DNA from: Bacteroidota bacterium
GTDB lineage: Bacteria; Bacteroidota; Bacteroidia; Chitinophagales; Chitinophagaceae
Assembly: GCA_013286305.1 (NCBI GenBank)
Contig: JABDFW010000008.1
Span: 1,596-65,595 of the forward strand
Direction of reading: 5' to 3'
DNA: 64,000 bases
The stretch's first letter is position 1. The number at the start of each line of letters is the position of its first letter. Shown in pieces: positions 7,096 through 55,560 of the stretch. A program made the position numbers and the translations under genes. The notes below the pieces were generated by a model. That model had not been told where the DNA came from and ran no database searches. It saw only the letters and a list, made by a program, of their open reading frames with translations.

Positions 7096-9276
7096 ATGTA
7101 TTCCGCAGAGCAAACAAAACATTTACAGCAGCAAACAAAAGCATTTATTGCCCATGCGCAGATAGATAAAAATGACGTTGAAGCTTTGCGCAATGTATTA
7201 CGGTTTCATGAATACAGGTATTACGTGTTAAATGACCCTCTTTTAGCCGACCCCGAATACGACCAGTTATTTAAACAACTTGAAAAGATTGAAGAAGGAA
7301 ACCCGGAATTGATCACCGGCGATTCCCCCACCCAAAGAGTTGGCAGCAGCCTTAACCAGTCGTTTCCTACAGTGCAGCACCTGGTTCCCATGCTAAGCTT
7401 AGACAATAGTTATGATGCCGATGACCTGCTTGATTTTGACAGGAAAGCGCGTGAATTGACAAGACTTGATGTGATTGAATATTGCATAGAGCCGAAGTTT
7501 GACGGAGCAAGTATTTCTTTAATATATGAGGATGATATGCTTGTTCGCGGTGCTACGCGGGGTGATGGTGTAGAGGGAGAAGATGTTACCACCAATATTA
7601 AACGCATACGCTCTATACCGTTGTCTGCGCCGTTTTCACAATACGGCATCCAGCAAATTGAAATACGCGGCGAAGTTTTAATGACAAAGGCTGCCTTTAA
7701 AAAATATAATGATGCACTTGCAGAACAGGGGCTTCCGCCATTGGCCAACCCGCGTAATGCAGCCAGTGGCAGCCTGCGTATTAAAGACCCCAAAATAGTT
7801 GGCAAAAGAAATCTTGAAGCGTTTTTGTATAATGTGAGCTATTATATTAGAGATGACAGATGGCAGATGACAGATGACAGGAAGAAGGAGGAAAAGGCTT
7901 CAGGCGCTTCTGTCAACTCTCATCTGTCATCTGTCAACCCTCTTTCCACCCACAGCGGTACACTGCAAATGTTATGGGAGTGTGGTTTTCGCTCTCCCCA
8001 AAAAGAAAAGATCGTTGTACAGGGCATTAATGAAGTAATTAAGCATGTACACGATTTTGAAGAAATGCGCGATACCCTGCCTTATGAAATTGACGGTATG
8101 GTAATAAAGGTAAATGAAATTGCGCTGCAGGATAAAATGGGCATGACCACCCACCACCCGCGCTGGGCAATTGCATTTAAATTTAAAGCAAGGCAGGCGA
8201 CAACTAAATTACGGGCGGTTGAATTTAATGTAGGCAGAACCGGCGCCGTTACCCCTGTTGCAAAACTTGACCCCGTGGCCGTTGGCGGCGTAACCGTTGG
8301 CAGTATATCTATGCACAACGAAGAATATATAAAAGAAAAAGACCTGATGATAGGCGATTCCGTTTTGATTGAAAGGGCCGGTGATGTAATACCACAAATT
8401 GTAAAATCTTTACCTGAATTAAGAACAGGCGATGAAAAACATATTCATTTCCCCAGGCATTGCCCTGTTTGCAAAAGTGAATTATACAAAACAGAGGATG
8501 AAGCTGTTTGGAGATGCATAAATATCGAGTGCCCCGCACAGGTGGTGGAACGCATCATTCATTTTGTAAGCAAAGATGCGATGGATATAAAAAGTTTTGG
8601 GGAAGCAAACGTGCGCAAGTTTTATGAATTGGGATTACTGAAAGATGTACCCGGCATTTATACGCTGGACTTTGATGCGATAAGCAAGCTTGAGGGGTTT
8701 GGTAAAAAATCAATTGATAATCTTCAAAGCGCCATTGAAGCATCTAAACAGCAGCCATTATACCGTTTAATATATGCGCTTGGCATTCGTTATGTAGGCG
8801 AAACAACTGCCAAAACAGTAGCCAATGCAATACACGATGTATTTGAATTGGAAAATATGAGCGATGTGCAATTGCAGCAAATGGAAGATGTTGGCGTTAA
8901 AGTAGCGCAAAGCATTTTTGCATTTTTTCAGAATAAAGAAAACATAAAAATACTTCACAAACTAAAAGAGCTTGGTTTGCAGATGTACAATATAAAGCGG
9001 TCTGCCCCAACAGAAAGCAATACCCTGCATGAACAAACATTTTTATTTACCGGAACGATGCTGAAACTTAAACGCAGCGAGGCTGAAGAAATGGTTGAAA
9101 AACACGGCGGCAAAATTGCAAGCGGCGTAAGCAGCAAATTAAATTACCTTGTAGTGGGTGAAGATGCAGGAAGCAAATTAGAAAAAGCAAAAAAAATAAA
9201 TACCATTAAGATCATCAGCGAAGATGAGTTTATAAAGTTGATTGGGGAAGAAGCCTCCTTAGCCCCCATCCCCTAA
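7096..9276 (+). CDS. ligA: NAD-dependent DNA ligase
   Basis: 726 aa. It has the KxDG adenylation motif (CIEPKFDGASISL), OB fold, Zn finger (CPVCKSEL...CINIECPAQ), HhH repeats and a C-terminal BRCT. Confidence 0.97.
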   Translation: MYSAEQTKHLQQQTKAFIAHAQIDKNDVEALRNVLRFHEYRYYVLNDPLLADPEYDQLFKQLEKIEEGNPELITGDSPTQRVGSSLNQSFPTVQHLVPMLSLDNSYDADDLLDFDRKARELTRLDVIEYCIEPKFDGASISLIYEDDMLVRGATRGDGVEGEDVTTNIKRIRSIPLSAPFSQYGIQQIEIRGEVLMTKAAFKKYNDALAEQGLPPLANPRNAASGSLRIKDPKIVGKRNLEAFLYNVSYYIRDDRWQMTDDRKKEEKASGASVNSHLSSVNPLSTHSGTLQMLWECGFRSPQKEKIVVQGINEVIKHVHDFEEMRDTLPYEIDGMVIKVNEIALQDKMGMTTHHPRWAIAFKFKARQATTKLRAVEFNVGRTGAVTPVAKLDPVAVGGVTVGSISMHNEEYIKEKDLMIGDSVLIERAGDVIPQIVKSLPELRTGDEKHIHFPRHCPVCKSELYKTEDEAVWRCINIECPAQVVERIIHFVSKDAMDIKSFGEANVRKFYELGLLKDVPGIYTLDFDAISKLEGFGKKSIDNLQSAIEASKQQPLYRLIYALGIRYVGETTAKTVANAIHDVFELENMSDVQLQQMEDVGVKVAQSIFAFFQNKENIKILHKLKELGLQMYNIKRSAPTESNTLHEQTFLFTGTMLKLKRSEAEEMVEKHGGKIASGVSSKLNYLVVGEDAGSKLEKAKKINTIKIISEDEFIKLIGEEASLAPIP
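7851..7936. repeat. Heptamer-word hairpin (GATGACA-type) inserted in frame within ligA
   Basis: The left arm AGATGACAGATGGCAGATGACAGATGACAGG (7851-7881) is imperfectly complementary to the right arm CTGTCAACTCTCATCTGTCATCTGTCA (7910-7936). It is translated as RDDRWQMTDDRKKEEKASGASVNSHLSSVN. Confidence 0.75.
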
Positions 9277-48594: not shown

Positions 48595-48702
48595 CTCTCC
48601 TCTCCCTTTAGGGTTGGGGCTTTGGCTTTTCTCTCCTCTCCCTTTAGGGTTGGGGCTTTGGCTTTTCTCCCTTCTCCCTTTAGGGCCGGGGCTTCGGCTT
48701 TT
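48595..48702. repeat. Three tandem 36-bp GC-rich repeat units abutting the thrA stop codon
   Basis: CTCTCCTCTCCCTTTAGGGTTGGGGCTTTGGCTTTT appears twice exactly (48595-48630, 48631-48666), followed by the diverged third copy CTCCCTTCTCCCTTTAGGGCCGGGGCTTCGGCTTTT (48667-48702). Confidence 0.9.
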
Positions 48703-51508: not shown

Positions 51509-52765
51509 TTACACCAAATACCCAAACAACGTATCATCTTTATTTAGCTCCGTAAAGTCAATATTATACTGCCGCATTTTTTCAACCAGGTCGTCGTAAT
51601 CATGCCTTGATTGCAATTCTATCCCCACCAATGCAGGCCCTGATTCTTTATTTGTTTTTTGTATATACTCAAAACGGGTAATATCGTCTTTGGGGCCAAG
51701 CACAAGGTTTAAAAATTCCCGCAAGGCACCGGGCCGTTGTGCAAAGTTCACCAGGAAATAATGCTTCAATCCCTCATACTGCAGGGAACGCTCTTTTATT
51801 TCAGGCATACGGTCAATATCATTGTTGCTTCCGCTTACAATGCAAACCACTGTTTTACCTTTTATCAATTCTGCATAATCATCAAGCGCAGCGATAGATA
51901 ATGCGCCGGCAGGCTCAACCACTATTGCATCTTCATTGTATAATTTCAAAATGGTGGAACATACTTTCCCTTCGGGTACAAGGCGCACGTCGTCTAACAC
52001 TTCTTTGCAAATAGCAAATGTAATGTCACCTGTACGTTTTACTGCGGCACCATCAACAAACCTGTCTATACTATTCAATGTTACCGGGTAGCCCGCTTTG
52101 AATGCTTCCAGCATACTTGGAGCGCCTTCAGGTTCAAGCCCAATTATTTTTGTTGAAGAAGAAACGGTTTTAAAATAAGTGCCAACACCTGATGCCAGGC
52201 CACCGCCACCGATGGGTACAAATACGTAGTCAATGTTGGTTAAATCCTCAAGTATCTCTACGGCAACCGTTCCCTGCCCTTCAATGATCCGGTAATCATC
52301 AAATGGCGGAATAAAGGCCATGTTGTGTTCTTCCGTATATTTTTTTGCAGCAACAGCGCAATCATCAAAGGTGTCGCCAATCAATACTATTTCAATACTA
52401 TCTTCTCCAAACATCATAGTTTGCCTAACCTTTTGTTTGGGGGTAATAATAGGCATGAAAATAACGCCTTTAATACCCAGCTTCCTGCAACTATAGGCGA
52501 AGCCCTGGGCATGATTGCCCGCACTGGCGGTAGTTACGCCATTCTTCAATTTTTCTGGTGGCAATGTACTTATCATATTATAAGCGCCGCGTAATTTGTA
52601 GGAGCGTACAACCTGCAGGTCTTCCCTTTTCAAATAAATATTTGCGCTATACCTCCGTGAAAGATTATGATTAAGCTGAAGCGGTGTTCAGTTAACTATA
52701 TCCTTTAGACGGTTGTGTGCGGCTATAAAATCCAAATGATATGTTGTGTCGGTAATTTTATTCAT
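51509..52765 (-). CDS. ilvA: Threonine ammonia-lyase (biosynthetic threonine dehydratase) interrupted by an in-frame TGA at codon 26; possible pseudogene or sequencing error
   Basis: The ATG at 52765 gives [62 protein letters not shown]..., where TGA is the plus-strand TCA at 52688-52690. The ORF-track version (51509..52633, TTG start) lacks the conserved TPLQ N-terminus. Confidence 0.85.
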
Positions 52766-52866
52766 AAAACCAGGCAGAGAAAAATATTTTATCTATAAAG
52801 TGTTTTACAAAGTCAGCAGGTTAATAAACAATGAGTTTAGGTATCACAGATTTTATAAATGCCTTA

Positions 52867-53127
52867 TCAGCATTTATTTTTAAAGCCATACTTAGGCCTT
52901 CTTTCTTCGTGATATTCTTTTTTGAAATCAAAATCATCAGTAAAGGTTAATTCAGGTTTTGGCATGCTGTCAAGTATATCAAGCAGAGATTGTTCTTCCT
53001 TATTTCTTGTGAGTATCCTGAAATGATCTTCCACTAATTCAGATAAGCTTAACCCTTTTTTTGCAGCATACATTTTTGCCTTTTTTAGCAATGTTGCTTC
53101 AATGGTAATATACAATATCGCTTTCAT
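52867..53127 (-). CDS. DUF6364-like small protein (antitoxin-like, RHH-type N-terminus), orphan
   Basis: The 86-aa MKAILYITIEATLLKKAKMYAAKKGLSLSELVEDHFRILT pattern matches the Bacteroidota DUF6364 family. No adjacent toxin ORF. Confidence 0.65.
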   Translation of the reverse strand: MKAILYITIEATLLKKAKMYAAKKGLSLSELVEDHFRILTRNKEEQSLLDILDSMPKPELTFTDDFDFKKEYHEERRPKYGFKNKC

Positions 53128-53164: not shown

Positions 53165-53407
53165 TTAACCAAATAAATCTTTTAACACCTGCTCTTTTGA
53201 TATAGCAAAATGTACTGATACCAGCGTTATTATTCCATTGAGTGTGCCTATTTTAATTGGATCGTGGTTAGGTATTGCTAAATGATGTTCTCCTTCCCGT
53301 TGAGTTGTAACCATTATATGACTTCCATTTTGACGGATTACCTGATAGCCATATACCTTCAGGGCTTTAATTACATCCTTTCCGGATATATCCCGTGGCA
53401 TTTTCAT
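53165..53407 (-). CDS. hicA: HicA-family (YcfA-like) mRNA interferase toxin
   Basis: 80 aa: MPRDISGKDVIKALKVYGYQVIRQNGSHIMV matches the HicA signature (..GKE.IK.L...G....RQ.GSH). It overlaps the upstream hicB by 4 nt. Confidence 0.85.
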   Translation of the reverse strand: MKMPRDISGKDVIKALKVYGYQVIRQNGSHIMVTTQREGEHHLAIPNHDPIKIGTLNGIITLVSVHFAISKEQVLKDLFG

Positions 53408-53613
53408 AAGGCCATAATTTCATCCCGCACAAAGTGCAAATGCGCAAATATTGGTGTATTTTCGGCCTTATTAAAATAACAATCTATCCCCCCCTTTATA
53501 TTTTCTTTTAACTCCTCTATTGTTTCCCCTTCAGCAAAAATTCCTAACCCTGCGGCCTGTGCATAATAGCCCCCTTCATCTGCTTCATGTACTAAAAAAG
53601 TAATTTCTTTCAT
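53404..53613 (-). CDS. hicB: HicB-family antitoxin (UPF0150-like domain only)
   Basis: 69 aa: FLVHEADEGGYYAQAAGLGIFAEGETIEELKENIKGGIDCYF matches the HicB N-terminal fold pattern. Translationally coupled to hicA. Confidence 0.8.
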   Translation of the reverse strand: MKEITFLVHEADEGGYYAQAAGLGIFAEGETIEELKENIKGGIDCYFNKAENTPIFAHLHFVRDEIMAL

Positions 53614-53657: not shown

Positions 53658-54362
53658 TCAATATTCTGCCAGCTTATCGATTGCCCTCTTATATAAATTT
53701 AAAAGATTAGGCACCCTTTCAACGGTCCAGGCATAAAAGGCATCATGCACAAGAATTAAGGTTATTTTCAAATTCTCTGGCCTACGGGATTCGTACGAAA
53801 GCAAAATTTTTCCGATTTCGGGTTCTAAGTTGGCAAAACGCGCCTGATTATCATAAATGTCTGTTAGCAGGCTATATGTACGAAGATCAATTTTAGCAAC
53901 AATATTATTTTGCTTGGCAGCCTGCCATGCTACGTCATTAATATCGTGCAACATAATGCCATGTGGTGGTGGTGTTATTGCTGATAAATTTATTGCCCCA
54001 TTGTTTAAGAATTTTTGAGCAATGGCAGGGTATTGTTCTGCGGAGTCTATTTTCTTAAATACTTCAAGGTGATAAGCATATTGCGACTTCACGGATTCGC
54101 TATTTGTAATCAATTCCTCCTTAAGCTGGTGTAATATTTCTCTTGTTTGCTGCTTTTCATGAAGGCTGTTAAAGAACTCTGTAAGTATCAATGCAAGCAA
54201 TACGCTGAATATAATAAGCGTGGATTCACCTACATATTCCTTCCAGTTGCGCACGGCTATCACCTCGGGCAATTCTTTCTTTTCTTTTTTCCCCAGGGCA
54301 ACCTGCAGTGCTTTTTCCGGCGGCTGTTGCGGCAATGATTCTTCCGGTAATGTTTCTTCCAT
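53658..54362 (-). CDS. Hypothetical single-pass membrane protein (234 aa)
   Basis: Acidic/Pro-rich N-terminus, TM STLIIFSVLLALILTEFF, and a ~150-aa C-terminal domain. No family recognised. It lies between ilvC and hicB. Confidence 0.55.
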   Translation of the reverse strand: MEETLPEESLPQQPPEKALQVALGKKEKKELPEVIAVRNWKEYVGESTLIIFSVLLALILTEFFNSLHEKQQTREILHQLKEELITNSESVKSQYAYHLEVFKKIDSAEQYPAIAQKFLNNGAINLSAITPPPHGIMLHDINDVAWQAAKQNNIVAKIDLRTYSLLTDIYDNQARFANLEPEIGKILLSYESRRPENLKITLILVHDAFYAWTVERVPNLLNLYKRAIDKLAEY

Positions 54363-54513: not shown

Positions 54514-55560
54514 TTATTGGTTCTCAGGCCTTAAGCTTCTTACCGTTTTACCTGCACGCCACATTTCGCTTTCCCTCAGTTCTTTTAATTCTTCATTCAG
54601 TTTTTCACGATAGTCAGGCTGGCTGTTGCTGTCAATACTGCGCTGGCTTTCTTTGCCTGCAGCAACGCTTTCATACAATTCTTTAAATACAGGCGCCGTT
54701 GCATCACGAAACCTTTTCCACCAATCCAATGCGCCACGCTGCGCTGTAGTGCTGCAATTGGCATACATCCAGTCCATACCATTTTCTGCAACCAAAGGCA
54801 TTAATGATTGCGTTAGTTCTTCTACTGTTTCGTTAAATGCTTCTGAGGGGGTATGGCCTTTATCACGCAGCACCTGGTACTGTGCAGCAAAAATTCCCTG
54901 AATAGCACCCATTAAAGTTCCGCGCTCACCGGTAAGATCGCTATATACTTCTTTCTTAAAGTTGGTTTCAAAAAGGTAGCCGCTGCCCACCGCAATGCCA
55001 AGTGCAATAACTCTGTCTTTTGCTTTGCCTGTTGCATCCTGAAAAATAGCATAGCTGCTGTTCAATCCACGCCCCTGCAAAAACATCCTCCGCAAAGATG
55101 TTCCCGAGCCTTTAGGAGCAACCAAAAATACATCTACATCAGCGGGAGGAATAATGCCTGTTTGTTCGTTAAACGTAATACCAAACCCATGTGAAAAATA
55201 TAAAGCTTTGCCGGCAGTTAAATGTTTTTTAACCGTAGGCCATAATTCAATTTGCGCTGCGTCGCTGAGCAGGTAACAAATAATGGTACCACGTTCTAAG
55301 GCTTCTTCAATGTCAAATAAAGTTTCGCCGGGCACAAAGCCATCAGCTACTGCTTTATCCCATGTTTTGGAGCTTTTGCGTTGCCCAACAATTACATTAA
55401 TACCATTGTCGCGCTGGTTCAATGCCTGGCCGGGGCCCTGCACGCCGTAACCTATTACTGCTATGGTTTCATTTTTTAAAACTTCCTGTGCTTTGCTTAA
55501 CGGAAACTCGTCGCGGGTAACTACATTTTCTTCTACCCCGCCGAAATTTAATTTTGCCAT
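54514..55560 (-). CDS. ilvC: Ketol-acid reductoisomerase (class I)
   Basis: 348 aa with VIGYGVQGPGQALNQRDNG and LSDAAQ motifs. Confidence 0.97.
   Translation of the reverse strand: MAKLNFGGVEENVVTRDEFPLSKAQEVLKNETIAVIGYGVQGPGQALNQRDNGINVIVGQRKSSKTWDKAVADGFVPGETLFDIEEALERGTIICYLLSDAAQIELWPTVKKHLTAGKALYFSHGFGITFNEQTGIIPPADVDVFLVAPKGSGTSLRRMFLQGRGLNSSYAIFQDATGKAKDRVIALGIAVGSGYLFETNFKKEVYSDLTGERGTLMGAIQGIFAAQYQVLRDKGHTPSEAFNETVEELTQSLMPLVAENGMDWMYANCSTTAQRGALDWWKRFRDATAPVFKELYESVAAGKESQRSIDSNSQPDYREKLNEELKELRESEMWRAGKTVRSLRPENQ

What the first reader, a model, noticed from the sequence alone, without database searches (positions are those of the whole stretch)
52685..52693. In-frame TGA at codon 26 of ilvA
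Translating the minus strand from the ATG at 52765 gives a normal threonine dehydratase N-terminus. A TGA (plus-strand TCA at 52688-52690) sits exactly before the conserved TPLQ motif: ...[43 protein letters not shown]. The frame is otherwise intact for 418 codons. The possibilities are a recent nonsense mutation (for example CGA to TGA), a sequencing error, reinitiation at the downstream TTG (52633) giving an N-terminally truncated enzyme, or stop-codon readthrough. Because ilvA is the last ilv gene, downstream of several inserted cassettes, decay of this cistron would fit ongoing operon erosion. The organism might then be an Ile auxotroph or use an alternative 2-oxobutanoate route.
Basis: seen in the sequence. 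Interest (0 to 1): 0.6.

Follow-up and report, generated by a model that had tools for sequence, protein, structure and literature searches.

The report
Recent nonsense mutation in ilvA
The isoleucine-pathway gene ilvA of this uncultured Chitinophagaceae bacterium carries a real premature stop codon, most likely from a single recent base change, which is an ordinary case of a metabolic gene being switched off.

Summary
A TGA sits at window 52690-52688 (minus strand), codon 26 of an otherwise intact 418-codon ilvA (TIGR02079, 647 bits).

It is not a one-off assembly error. Two contigs assembled independently from two public runs (SRR8424007, SRR8424051) match the window 100% over 5.9 and 7.0 kb, and both carry the TGA.

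All 21 orthologues in relatives are uninterrupted. The codon is Arg in 78 and Lys in 29 of 117 close homologues. A same-genus relative reads GTTAAC-CGA-ACACCGCT where this genome reads GTTAAC-TGA-ACACCGCT. One C-to-T change is therefore the simplest origin.

Nothing points to recoding:
- TGA ends 279 of 1406 long ORFs in this genome.
- The following base, A, is ordinary for TGA stops here.
- I found no tRNA-Sec, opal-suppressor tRNA, SelB, hairpin or Rfam element.

The rest of the gene shows no decay, so the lesion is young.

Loss is plausible in context. The PIN toxin gene directly upstream is also a deleted, stop-bearing remnant. Eight of 24 family genomes lack ilvA. All four well-assembled genus members also carry a CimA-like gene. 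That gene, and leuA, are missing from this 70%-complete assembly, so auxotrophy cannot be judged.

Low interest.

The parts
52688..52690 (-). In-frame TGA, codon 26 of ilvA
   Evidence: Orthologues have Arg or Lys here, and the same-genus genome G005 has CGA. The same base is present in Logan contigs L034 and L035.
51509..52765 (-). ilvA reading frame: 418 codons plus TAA stop, single-ACT-type threonine ammonia-lyase, interrupted only at codon 26
   Evidence: TIGR02079 647 bits and NF006390 644 bits. PF00291 263.9 bits, with the TGA flagged inside the matched frame. Closest solved structures are IlvA 8y1j and 1tdj. 87% identity to the best relative.
52691..52765 (-). The 25 codons before the stop; the only product expected under normal termination is a 25-residue peptide
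   Evidence: aligns with the N-termini of the orthologues.
52631..52633 (-). TTG, codon 45: first possible restart. It gives the 374-aa gene call, which keeps the PLP lysine (K57, AAA 52597-52595) but loses the TPLQ strand and the following helix
   Evidence: P0122, the 374-aa product called on the SRR8424051 contig. TIGR01127 core starts at residue 27.
52574..52576 (-). ATG, codon 64: start of the 355-aa gene call, which lacks the PLP lysine
   Evidence: P0008, 355 aa, called on the SRR8424007 contig. Sequence.
52797..52931 (-). Remnant of the PIN-type toxin gene that lies between DUF6364 and ilvA in genus relatives. Residues about 1-22 are fused in frame to residues about 127-153, with an in-frame TAA at 52823-52821
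   Evidence: Relatives have a 154-aa ORF there. tblastn of that ORF against the window gives two same-frame pieces and the stop.
52867..53127 (-). DUF6364 gene, antitoxin-like, now without an intact partner
   Evidence: PF19891 48 bits. Present in genus relatives G003, G005, G004 and G002.
53165..53613 (-). 69-aa ORF plus HicA toxin gene, found between ilvC and ilvA only in this genome among those compared
   Evidence: PF07927 47 bits. No match in the relatives' loci.
53658..54362 (-). 234-aa protein of unknown family, shared with genus relatives at this position
54514..55560 (-). ilvC, which directly precedes ilvA in most genera of the family

Best explanation
A single recent base substitution turned the Arg codon 26 of ilvA into the opal stop TGA. 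The most likely change is CGA to TGA, a C-to-T transition. Ribosomes terminate after 25 residues, so little or no full-length threonine ammonia-lyase is made and the gene is a young pseudogene or, at best, a very leaky allele. Shown: the stop is real in the assembled population, orthologues are intact, the genome uses TGA as a normal stop, and the rest of the gene is undecayed. Inferred: the ancestral codon, the loss of function, and the reason it is tolerated. Tolerance could come from a second, threonine-independent route to 2-oxobutanoate through the CimA-like synthase seen in genus relatives, or from isoleucine supplied by the community.
For: TGA in an otherwise intact 418-codon frame. The same base is present in two independently assembled run contigs, each 100% identical over 5.9-7.0 kb. 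None of the 21 ilvA orthologues in relatives has an internal stop. Codon 26 is Arg (8) or Lys (7) in the family, and G005 reads GTTAAC CGA ACACCGCTG against GTTAAC TGA ACACCGCTT here. Among 117 close database homologues the residue is R 78, K 29, H 7, G 2, S 1, and several share the exact peptide RLKDIVNRTPLQLN. TGA is a standard stop: 279 of 1406 long ORFs end in it, with a median 10-codon extension. The +4 base A follows 29% of natural TGA stops, equal to base composition. There is no tRNA-Sec or UCA-anticodon tRNA among 35 tRNAs and no SelB above cut-off. The downstream RNA has no unusual fold (z = +0.62) and no Rfam match. The lesion looks young: one lineage-specific change at a column invariant in the other 18 aligned orthologues, like its relatives, and pairwise dN/dS of 0.04-0.07. 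Loss is plausible in context. The PIN toxin gene directly upstream is deleted and stop-bearing. Eight of 24 family genomes, all at least 98% complete, lack ilvA, and seven of those also lack ilvC. All four genus genomes at least 94% complete have, beside ilvA, a 540-aa paralogue that scores best against the CimA model NF042433 (701 bits, against 347 for the best LeuA model).
Against: An intact minority allele, or a systematic error shared by the runs, is therefore not excluded. I do not know whether the two runs are biologically independent samples. The undecayed state of the gene fits continued selection as well as recency. dS is saturated, so dN/dS has little power for a recent change. The CimA-like gene was not found in this genome, but leuA was not found either and the assembly is 69.6% complete. 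The closest overall relative (G003, 87% identity) has AAA (Lys) at the codon, so the Arg ancestor is the parsimonious inference, not a certainty.
Confidence: 0.75

Rival explanations
1. The mutation is real but the gene still works. Near-cognate decoding of UGA, for example by tRNA-Trp(CCA), or restart at TTG codon 45, gives enough enzyme for slow isoleucine synthesis, especially when the Ile/Val leader attenuator de-represses the operon.
For: The gene shows no further decay. Column 26 is variable across the wider family (R, K, H, E, L, Y; also G and S), so a substituted residue could be tolerated. UGA is the leakiest stop codon in model bacteria (general knowledge, not tested here). tRNA-Trp(CCA) is present.
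Against: TGA-A is an ordinary termination context in this genome. There is no stimulatory structure. No relative shares the stop. Restart at codon 45 would remove residues 27-44, which are core positions of every IlvA family model and of the solved IlvA structures. Lack of decay is equally explained by recency.
Confidence: 0.12
2. The TGA is an artefact, or a variant that does not represent the population. It could be a consensus error repeated across runs, or one strain's allele alongside an intact allele that the assemblers dropped.
For: The genome is a metagenome bin of 161 contigs at 69.6% completeness. Reads were not available. Logan contigs drop rare variants. The second nonsense codon I found (acs, TAG) lies about 80 bases from a scaffold gap, is seen only in the bin, and may reflect local assembly problems.
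Against: Three assemblies made with at least two different pipelines from at least two runs agree perfectly for kilobases on each side. The contigs do not break at the site, as they would tend to at a well-covered polymorphism. A sample of 135 orthologue pairs (46,465 aligned residues) against relative G003 has no in-frame stop, so the bin is not error-ridden.
Confidence: 0.1
3. The TGA is programmed recoding: selenocysteine, a reassigned genetic code, or a dedicated suppressor tRNA. One candidate is the odd tRNA-Arg-derived gene with anticodon ACA on contig C19, which could read UGA if A34 were deaminated to inosine.
For: This genome alone, among the 12 relatives' loci checked, has tandem tRNA-Arg(ACG)-derived copies with anticodon ACA (39 bits on the Rfam tRNA model, A73, CCA encoded). 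The residue expected at codon 26 is Arg.
Against: TGA is a normal stop genome-wide and in-frame TGAs are not enriched. There is no SECIS-like hairpin, no SelB and no tRNA-Sec. Homologues have Arg or Lys at the site, not Cys. The ACA copy has a G.G mismatch in the acceptor stem, an extra base before the anticodon stem and a lost D-loop G. Its sister copies are riddled with hairpin insertions, so it looks like a pseudo-tRNA. An ICA anticodon would also misread the Cys codons.
Confidence: 0.02

Closest known systems
Biosynthetic threonine ammonia-lyase IlvA, single-regulatory-domain type (NCBIfam TIGR02079 / NF006390; solved relatives 8y1j and E. coli 1tdj)
   Same: Full-length match with the PLP lysine in SYKLRGAY, the TPLQ motif, the PALP domain and one C-terminal Thr_dehydrat_C domain. 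It holds the same position after the ilv genes as in relatives.
   Different: An opal stop interrupts it at codon 26. None of the 21 relatives or the 117 close database homologues whose motif could be read has one.
Young nonsense pseudogenes and amino-acid auxotrophy by gene loss in free-living bacteria (the 'Black Queen' kind of loss)
   Same: A single inactivating point mutation in a costly biosynthetic gene. The lineage's relatives often lack the gene or the whole pathway: 8 of 24 family genomes lack ilvA and 7 of those also lack ilvC.
   Different: Loss of function and auxotrophy are inferred, not shown. The remaining ilv genes in the window are intact.
Citramalate (CimA) route to 2-oxobutanoate, as in Leptospira (NCBIfam NF042433)
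   Same: Genus relatives carry, beside ilvA, a 540-aa LeuA paralogue that scores best against the CimA model, next to a leuB paralogue. That would make IlvA redundant.
   Different: The score (701 bits) is below the model's curated cut-off (950). The activity is untested. The gene was not found in this incomplete genome.
Bacterial selenocysteine insertion at UGA (SelA/SelB/SelC plus SECIS)
   Same: Only the in-frame UGA.
   Different: No SECIS-like hairpin, SelB or tRNA-Sec was found, and homologues carry Arg or Lys rather than Cys.

Membership tests
IlvA threonine ammonia-lyase (TIGR02079 / NF006390) | Full-length match above the curated cut-off, covering the PALP domain and one C-terminal regulatory domain | tested here: met
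   647 bits against cut-off 440.55, profile positions 3-410/410; NF006390 644 bits against 421. Stored Pfam hits for the downstream gene products are PF00291 plus PF00585.
IlvA threonine ammonia-lyase (TIGR02079 / NF006390) | PLP-binding lysine in the S-x-K-x-R-G motif | tested here: met
   SYKLRGAY with K57 (AAA 52597-52595), aligned to the same motif in all orthologues.
IlvA threonine ammonia-lyase (TIGR02079 / NF006390) | Uninterrupted coding sequence able to give the full-length enzyme | tested here: not met
   TGA at codon 26.
Nonsense pseudogene | A premature stop at a position where orthologues have a sense codon, reachable by one substitution | tested here: met
   R or K in relatives; CGA or AGA in four same-genus genomes.
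Nonsense pseudogene | The lesion is present in the underlying reads and population, not only in one assembly | tested here: inconclusive
Nonsense pseudogene | Loss of the gene product or activity | not testable with these tools
   Needs proteomics or complementation.
Selenoprotein (bacterial Sec insertion) | SECIS hairpin immediately 3' of the UGA | tested here: not met
   The 91-nt fold has z = +0.62, and no Rfam match at E <= 1.
Selenoprotein (bacterial Sec insertion) | tRNA-Sec and SelB in the genome | tested here: not met
   No tRNA-Sec among 35 tRNAs. The best SelB-model hit is 185 bits against cut-off 242, on a 403-aa ORF of EF-Tu size. Caveat: the genome is 69.6% complete.
Selenoprotein (bacterial Sec insertion) | Cys (or Sec) at the aligned position in homologues | tested here: not met
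   R 78, K 29, H 7, G 2, S 1.
Reassigned genetic code (TGA as sense, tables 4/25) | TGA not used as a terminator, with many in-frame TGAs in conserved genes | tested here: not met
   279 of 1406 long ORFs end in TGA with short extensions. No in-frame stops in 135 orthologue pairs. No TGA excess among candidate interrupted frames.
Programmed stop-codon readthrough | The stop is conserved among relatives and has a special context or stimulatory structure | tested here: not met
   The stop is unique to this genome. TGA-A is an average context here. No structure.

The most novel reading that the evidence does not exclude
The opal codon is kept as a working, very low-output allele. Occasional decoding of UGA would supply just enough IlvA beside a citramalate route. 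The decoder could be tRNA-Trp or, more exotically, the genome-specific tRNA-Arg-derived ACA-anticodon tRNA after A34-to-I editing, which would restore the ancestral Arg. In that case the stop would act as a translational throttle rather than a knockout.
Probability: 0.04. Interest if true: 0.55.

Novelty: already known. Interest (0 to 1): 0.15.

Why it matters
It matters mainly for annotation and metabolic inference. Pipelines call this gene as a 315-, 355- or 374-residue 'threonine dehydratase', and metabolic models would then count an enzyme that is probably not made. If the allele is fixed, this Chitinophagaceae population either depends on a citramalate-type route or takes isoleucine from its community. 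That fits the repeated loss of ilvA, or of the whole ilv pathway, in the family. It opens no new mechanism.

Tried and rejected
- **Exact-pattern scans.** Scans of metagenome contigs and genome contigs with NNN at the codon found nothing.
- **Intact allele in the protein collection.** None from the same species exists. The best non-self IlvA is 87% identical.
- **P0119.** This 389-aa homologue looked like a second N-terminally cut ilvA. It is only a gene-caller start choice, and the upstream frame is open with AGA (Arg) at the codon.
- **Hexamer coding-potential scan.** The scan for stop-interrupted genes missed ilvA itself, because the score just after the stop is low. Most of its candidates were neighbouring genes in the same frame. 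Only acs looked genuine.
- **First tblastn screen.** The screen with stop-to-stop ORFs of G003 gave 31 false 'stops' from shadow ORFs and 5' leaders. After filtering the count was 0 of 135.
- **dN/dS.** dS is saturated (1.3 or more, or undefined) for all pairs, so this says little about recent relaxation.
- **Sec, code reassignment, programmed readthrough.** All rejected; see the membership tests.
- **Literature.** A search for the run accession found no paper, so the habitat is unknown.

Full report
**Observation.** The minus strand from the ATG at 52765 reads [25 protein letters not shown], then TGA at 52690-52688, then [36 protein letters not shown] and onward. The frame stays open to the TAA at 51511-51509, 418 codons in all. 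With the stop masked, the protein matches the single-regulatory-domain threonine ammonia-lyase models over their whole length. TIGR02079 scores 647 bits (cut-off 440.55) over profile positions 3-410 of 410, and NF006390 scores 644 bits. The 25 residues before the stop are therefore homologous N-terminus, and the stop interrupts a real gene. The first ATG/GTG/TTG after it is the TTG at 52633, codon 45.

**Whether the base is real.** The window is contig C8 (positions 1596-65595) of a metagenome-type assembly of 3.58 Mb in 161 contigs, 69.6% complete. The protein collection, however, holds three different gene calls for this locus:
- 355 aa on a 5,890-bp Logan contig of SRR8424007
- 374 aa on a 12,976-bp Logan contig of SRR8424051
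- 315 aa on the 66,213-bp NCBI/JGI contig

The two Logan contigs are 100% identical to the window over 5,890 and 6,994 bp, and both read GTTAAC TGA ACACCG. At least two read sets and two assembly pipelines therefore agree, and neither contig breaks at the site. A one-off error is very unlikely. A minority intact allele cannot be excluded, because such contigs drop rare variants.

**What relatives have.** Sixteen genomes of the same family, including all five of the same genus, and five further genomes of the same order carry an ilvA orthologue. None has an internal stop. At codon 26 they have Arg (8), Lys (7), His (2), Glu (2), Leu (1) or Tyr (1). Same-genus codons are CGA, CGT, AGA, AGA and AAA. 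G005 reads ATCGTTAAC CGA ACACCGCTG against ATAGTTAAC TGA ACACCGCTT here. Among the best 117 database homologues in which the motif could be read, the residue is R 78, K 29, H 7, G 2, S 1. Several carry exactly RLKDIVNRTPLQLN. The simplest history is one substitution in an Arg codon, CGA to TGA (C-to-T) or AGA to TGA. One apparently N-terminally short homologue (P0119) turned out to be a gene-caller choice with an open upstream frame.

**Is TGA read as something else here? No.**
- TGA ends 279 of 1406 long ORFs, with a median extension of 10 codons to the next stop, like TAA and TAG.
- The base after the stop, A, follows 29% of natural TGA stops, which equals its genomic frequency.
- ARAGORN finds no tRNA-Sec and no UCA anticodon among 35 tRNAs, and the best SelB-model hit is below cut-off on a 403-aa ORF of EF-Tu size.
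- The 91 nt around and after the stop fold no better than shuffles (z = +0.62), and no Rfam family matches within 2.4 kb.
- A screen of 135 orthologue pairs (46,465 residues) against 400 kb of relative G003 shows no in-frame stop in this genome.
- A coding-potential scan shows no excess of TGA among candidate interruptions.

**Age of the lesion.** Apart from the stop, ilvA has one lineage-specific change (P213S) at a column invariant in the other 18 aligned orthologues. Its relatives have 0-2 such changes. Pairwise dN/dS is 0.04-0.07, as between intact genes. dS is saturated, so this shows only that there has been no long decay. The mutation is young, or the gene is still under some selection.

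**Could a product still be made?** Restart at TTG codon 45 keeps the PLP lysine (K57) but removes residues 27-44. Those residues are positions 1-18 of even the shortest IlvA family model, since TIGR01127 aligns from residue 27. They are also within the regions aligned to solved IlvA structures (8y1j, 1tdj). An active enzyme is therefore unlikely (inference). The ATG at codon 64, used by one gene call, lacks K57. Low-level near-cognate decoding of UGA is possible in principle, and column 26 tolerates varied residues, but nothing in the sequence promotes it.

**Context.** The operon order is: leader, DUF5655, ilvD, ilvB, ilvN, DJ-1/PfpI, ilvC, a 234-aa unknown protein, a 69-aa ORF plus hicA, DUF6364, ilvA (earlier notes e1-3935951 and e1-3935952).
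- In most genera of the family, ilvC directly precedes ilvA.
- In this genus, the 234-aa gene, DUF6364 and a 154-aa PIN-like toxin gene lie between them.
- Only this genome adds the hicA pair.
- Here the PIN gene is a remnant. Its first ~22 and last ~27 codons are fused in frame (52931-52797), with an in-frame TAA at 52823-52821.

Two inactivating lesions thus lie within about 135 bp of each other, around the start of ilvA.

**Can the cell do without IlvA?** The other PALP-fold genes found in the assembly are thrC in this window, a fragment cut by the end of contig C71, and three genes that by eye resemble CysK, TrpB and a DcyD-like protein. These were not checked with a family search. No second threonine dehydratase is present. 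No LeuA/CimA-type gene is found at all. Since leuA itself is missing, and a neighbour of leuA in G005 matches the very end of contig C8, this reflects incompleteness.

All four genus genomes at least 94% complete have both ilvA and a 540-aa LeuA paralogue. That paralogue scores best against the Leptospira CimA model: 701 bits, below the 950 cut-off, against 347 for the best LeuA model. It sits next to a leuB paralogue. A redundant citramalate route is therefore plausible for this lineage but not shown for this genome.

In the family, 8 of 24 genomes (all at least 98% complete) lack ilvA, and 7 of those also lack ilvC. Loss of this step or of the whole pathway is common.

**Verdict.** This is a real premature stop, most likely a young Arg-to-opal nonsense mutation that silences or nearly silences ilvA. 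It is an ordinary event. The gene calls of 315-374 residues should be treated as pseudogene fragments. Read-level allele frequency and the presence of the CimA-like gene remain to be checked.

**Seen in passing.** acs on contig C116 has a TAG where five relatives have CAG, again a C-to-T change at codon position 1. It lies near a scaffold gap and is seen only in the bin. Contig C19 carries a genome-specific tandem array of tRNA-Arg(ACG)-derived copies with a replaced anticodon arm that reads ACA.

Noticed in passing
G000 contig C116, plus-strand 8322-8324 (outside the window): The acetyl-CoA synthetase gene (acs) has an in-frame TAG (GTTTGC TAG TTTGCC) where five relatives have CAG, Gln (GTTTGC CAG TTTGCC). 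This is again a C-to-T change at codon position 1. It lies about 80 bases from a 10-N scaffold gap at the contig end. The 512-aa downstream product is recorded only for this bin, so it has no independent confirmation.
   Followed up: partly
G000 contig C19, 10978-11400 and 12342-12401 (outside the window): Downstream of an rpoD-like gene, a normal tRNA-Arg(ACG) is followed by tandem copies. These share its acceptor, D and T arms and the same terminator hairpin, but have a replaced anticodon arm (ATCCCGATACAATCGGGA). ARAGORN calls the result tRNA-Cys(ACA), and Rfam tRNA scores it 39 bits against 62 for the parent. Later copies carry hairpin-repeat insertions in the D and T loops. The 11 relatives' loci scanned have at most the single tRNA-Arg (10 of them; none was found in one). 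It is probably a pseudo-tRNA array, but an A34 anticodon in the Cys/stop/Trp (UGN) codon box is unusual.
   Followed up: partly
window 52797-52931 (-): The 'orphan' DUF6364 gene is not originally orphan. Genus relatives have a 154-aa PIN-like toxin gene between it and ilvA. Here only a fused N-/C-terminal remnant with an in-frame TAA survives.
   Followed up: yes
window 48604-48702: Both Logan contigs end at exactly window position 48640. Their last 63 bases also match a second place 36 bases away at 92% identity (48666-48604). This is a short tandem-like repeat around the start of the 829-aa AA_kinase/Homoserine_dh (thrA-type) ORF called there, and it evidently breaks short-read assemblies.
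   Followed up: no
relatives G015 and G024: G015 (99% complete) has ilvC but no ilvA and no CimA-like match. G024 has ilvA but no close ilvC, only a 23%-identical KARI-like gene upstream. The family shows mixed partial states of the isoleucine pathway.
   Followed up: no
relative G010 C94:118596-120125: The CimA-like gene of G010 is itself reported with one internal TAA.
   Followed up: no
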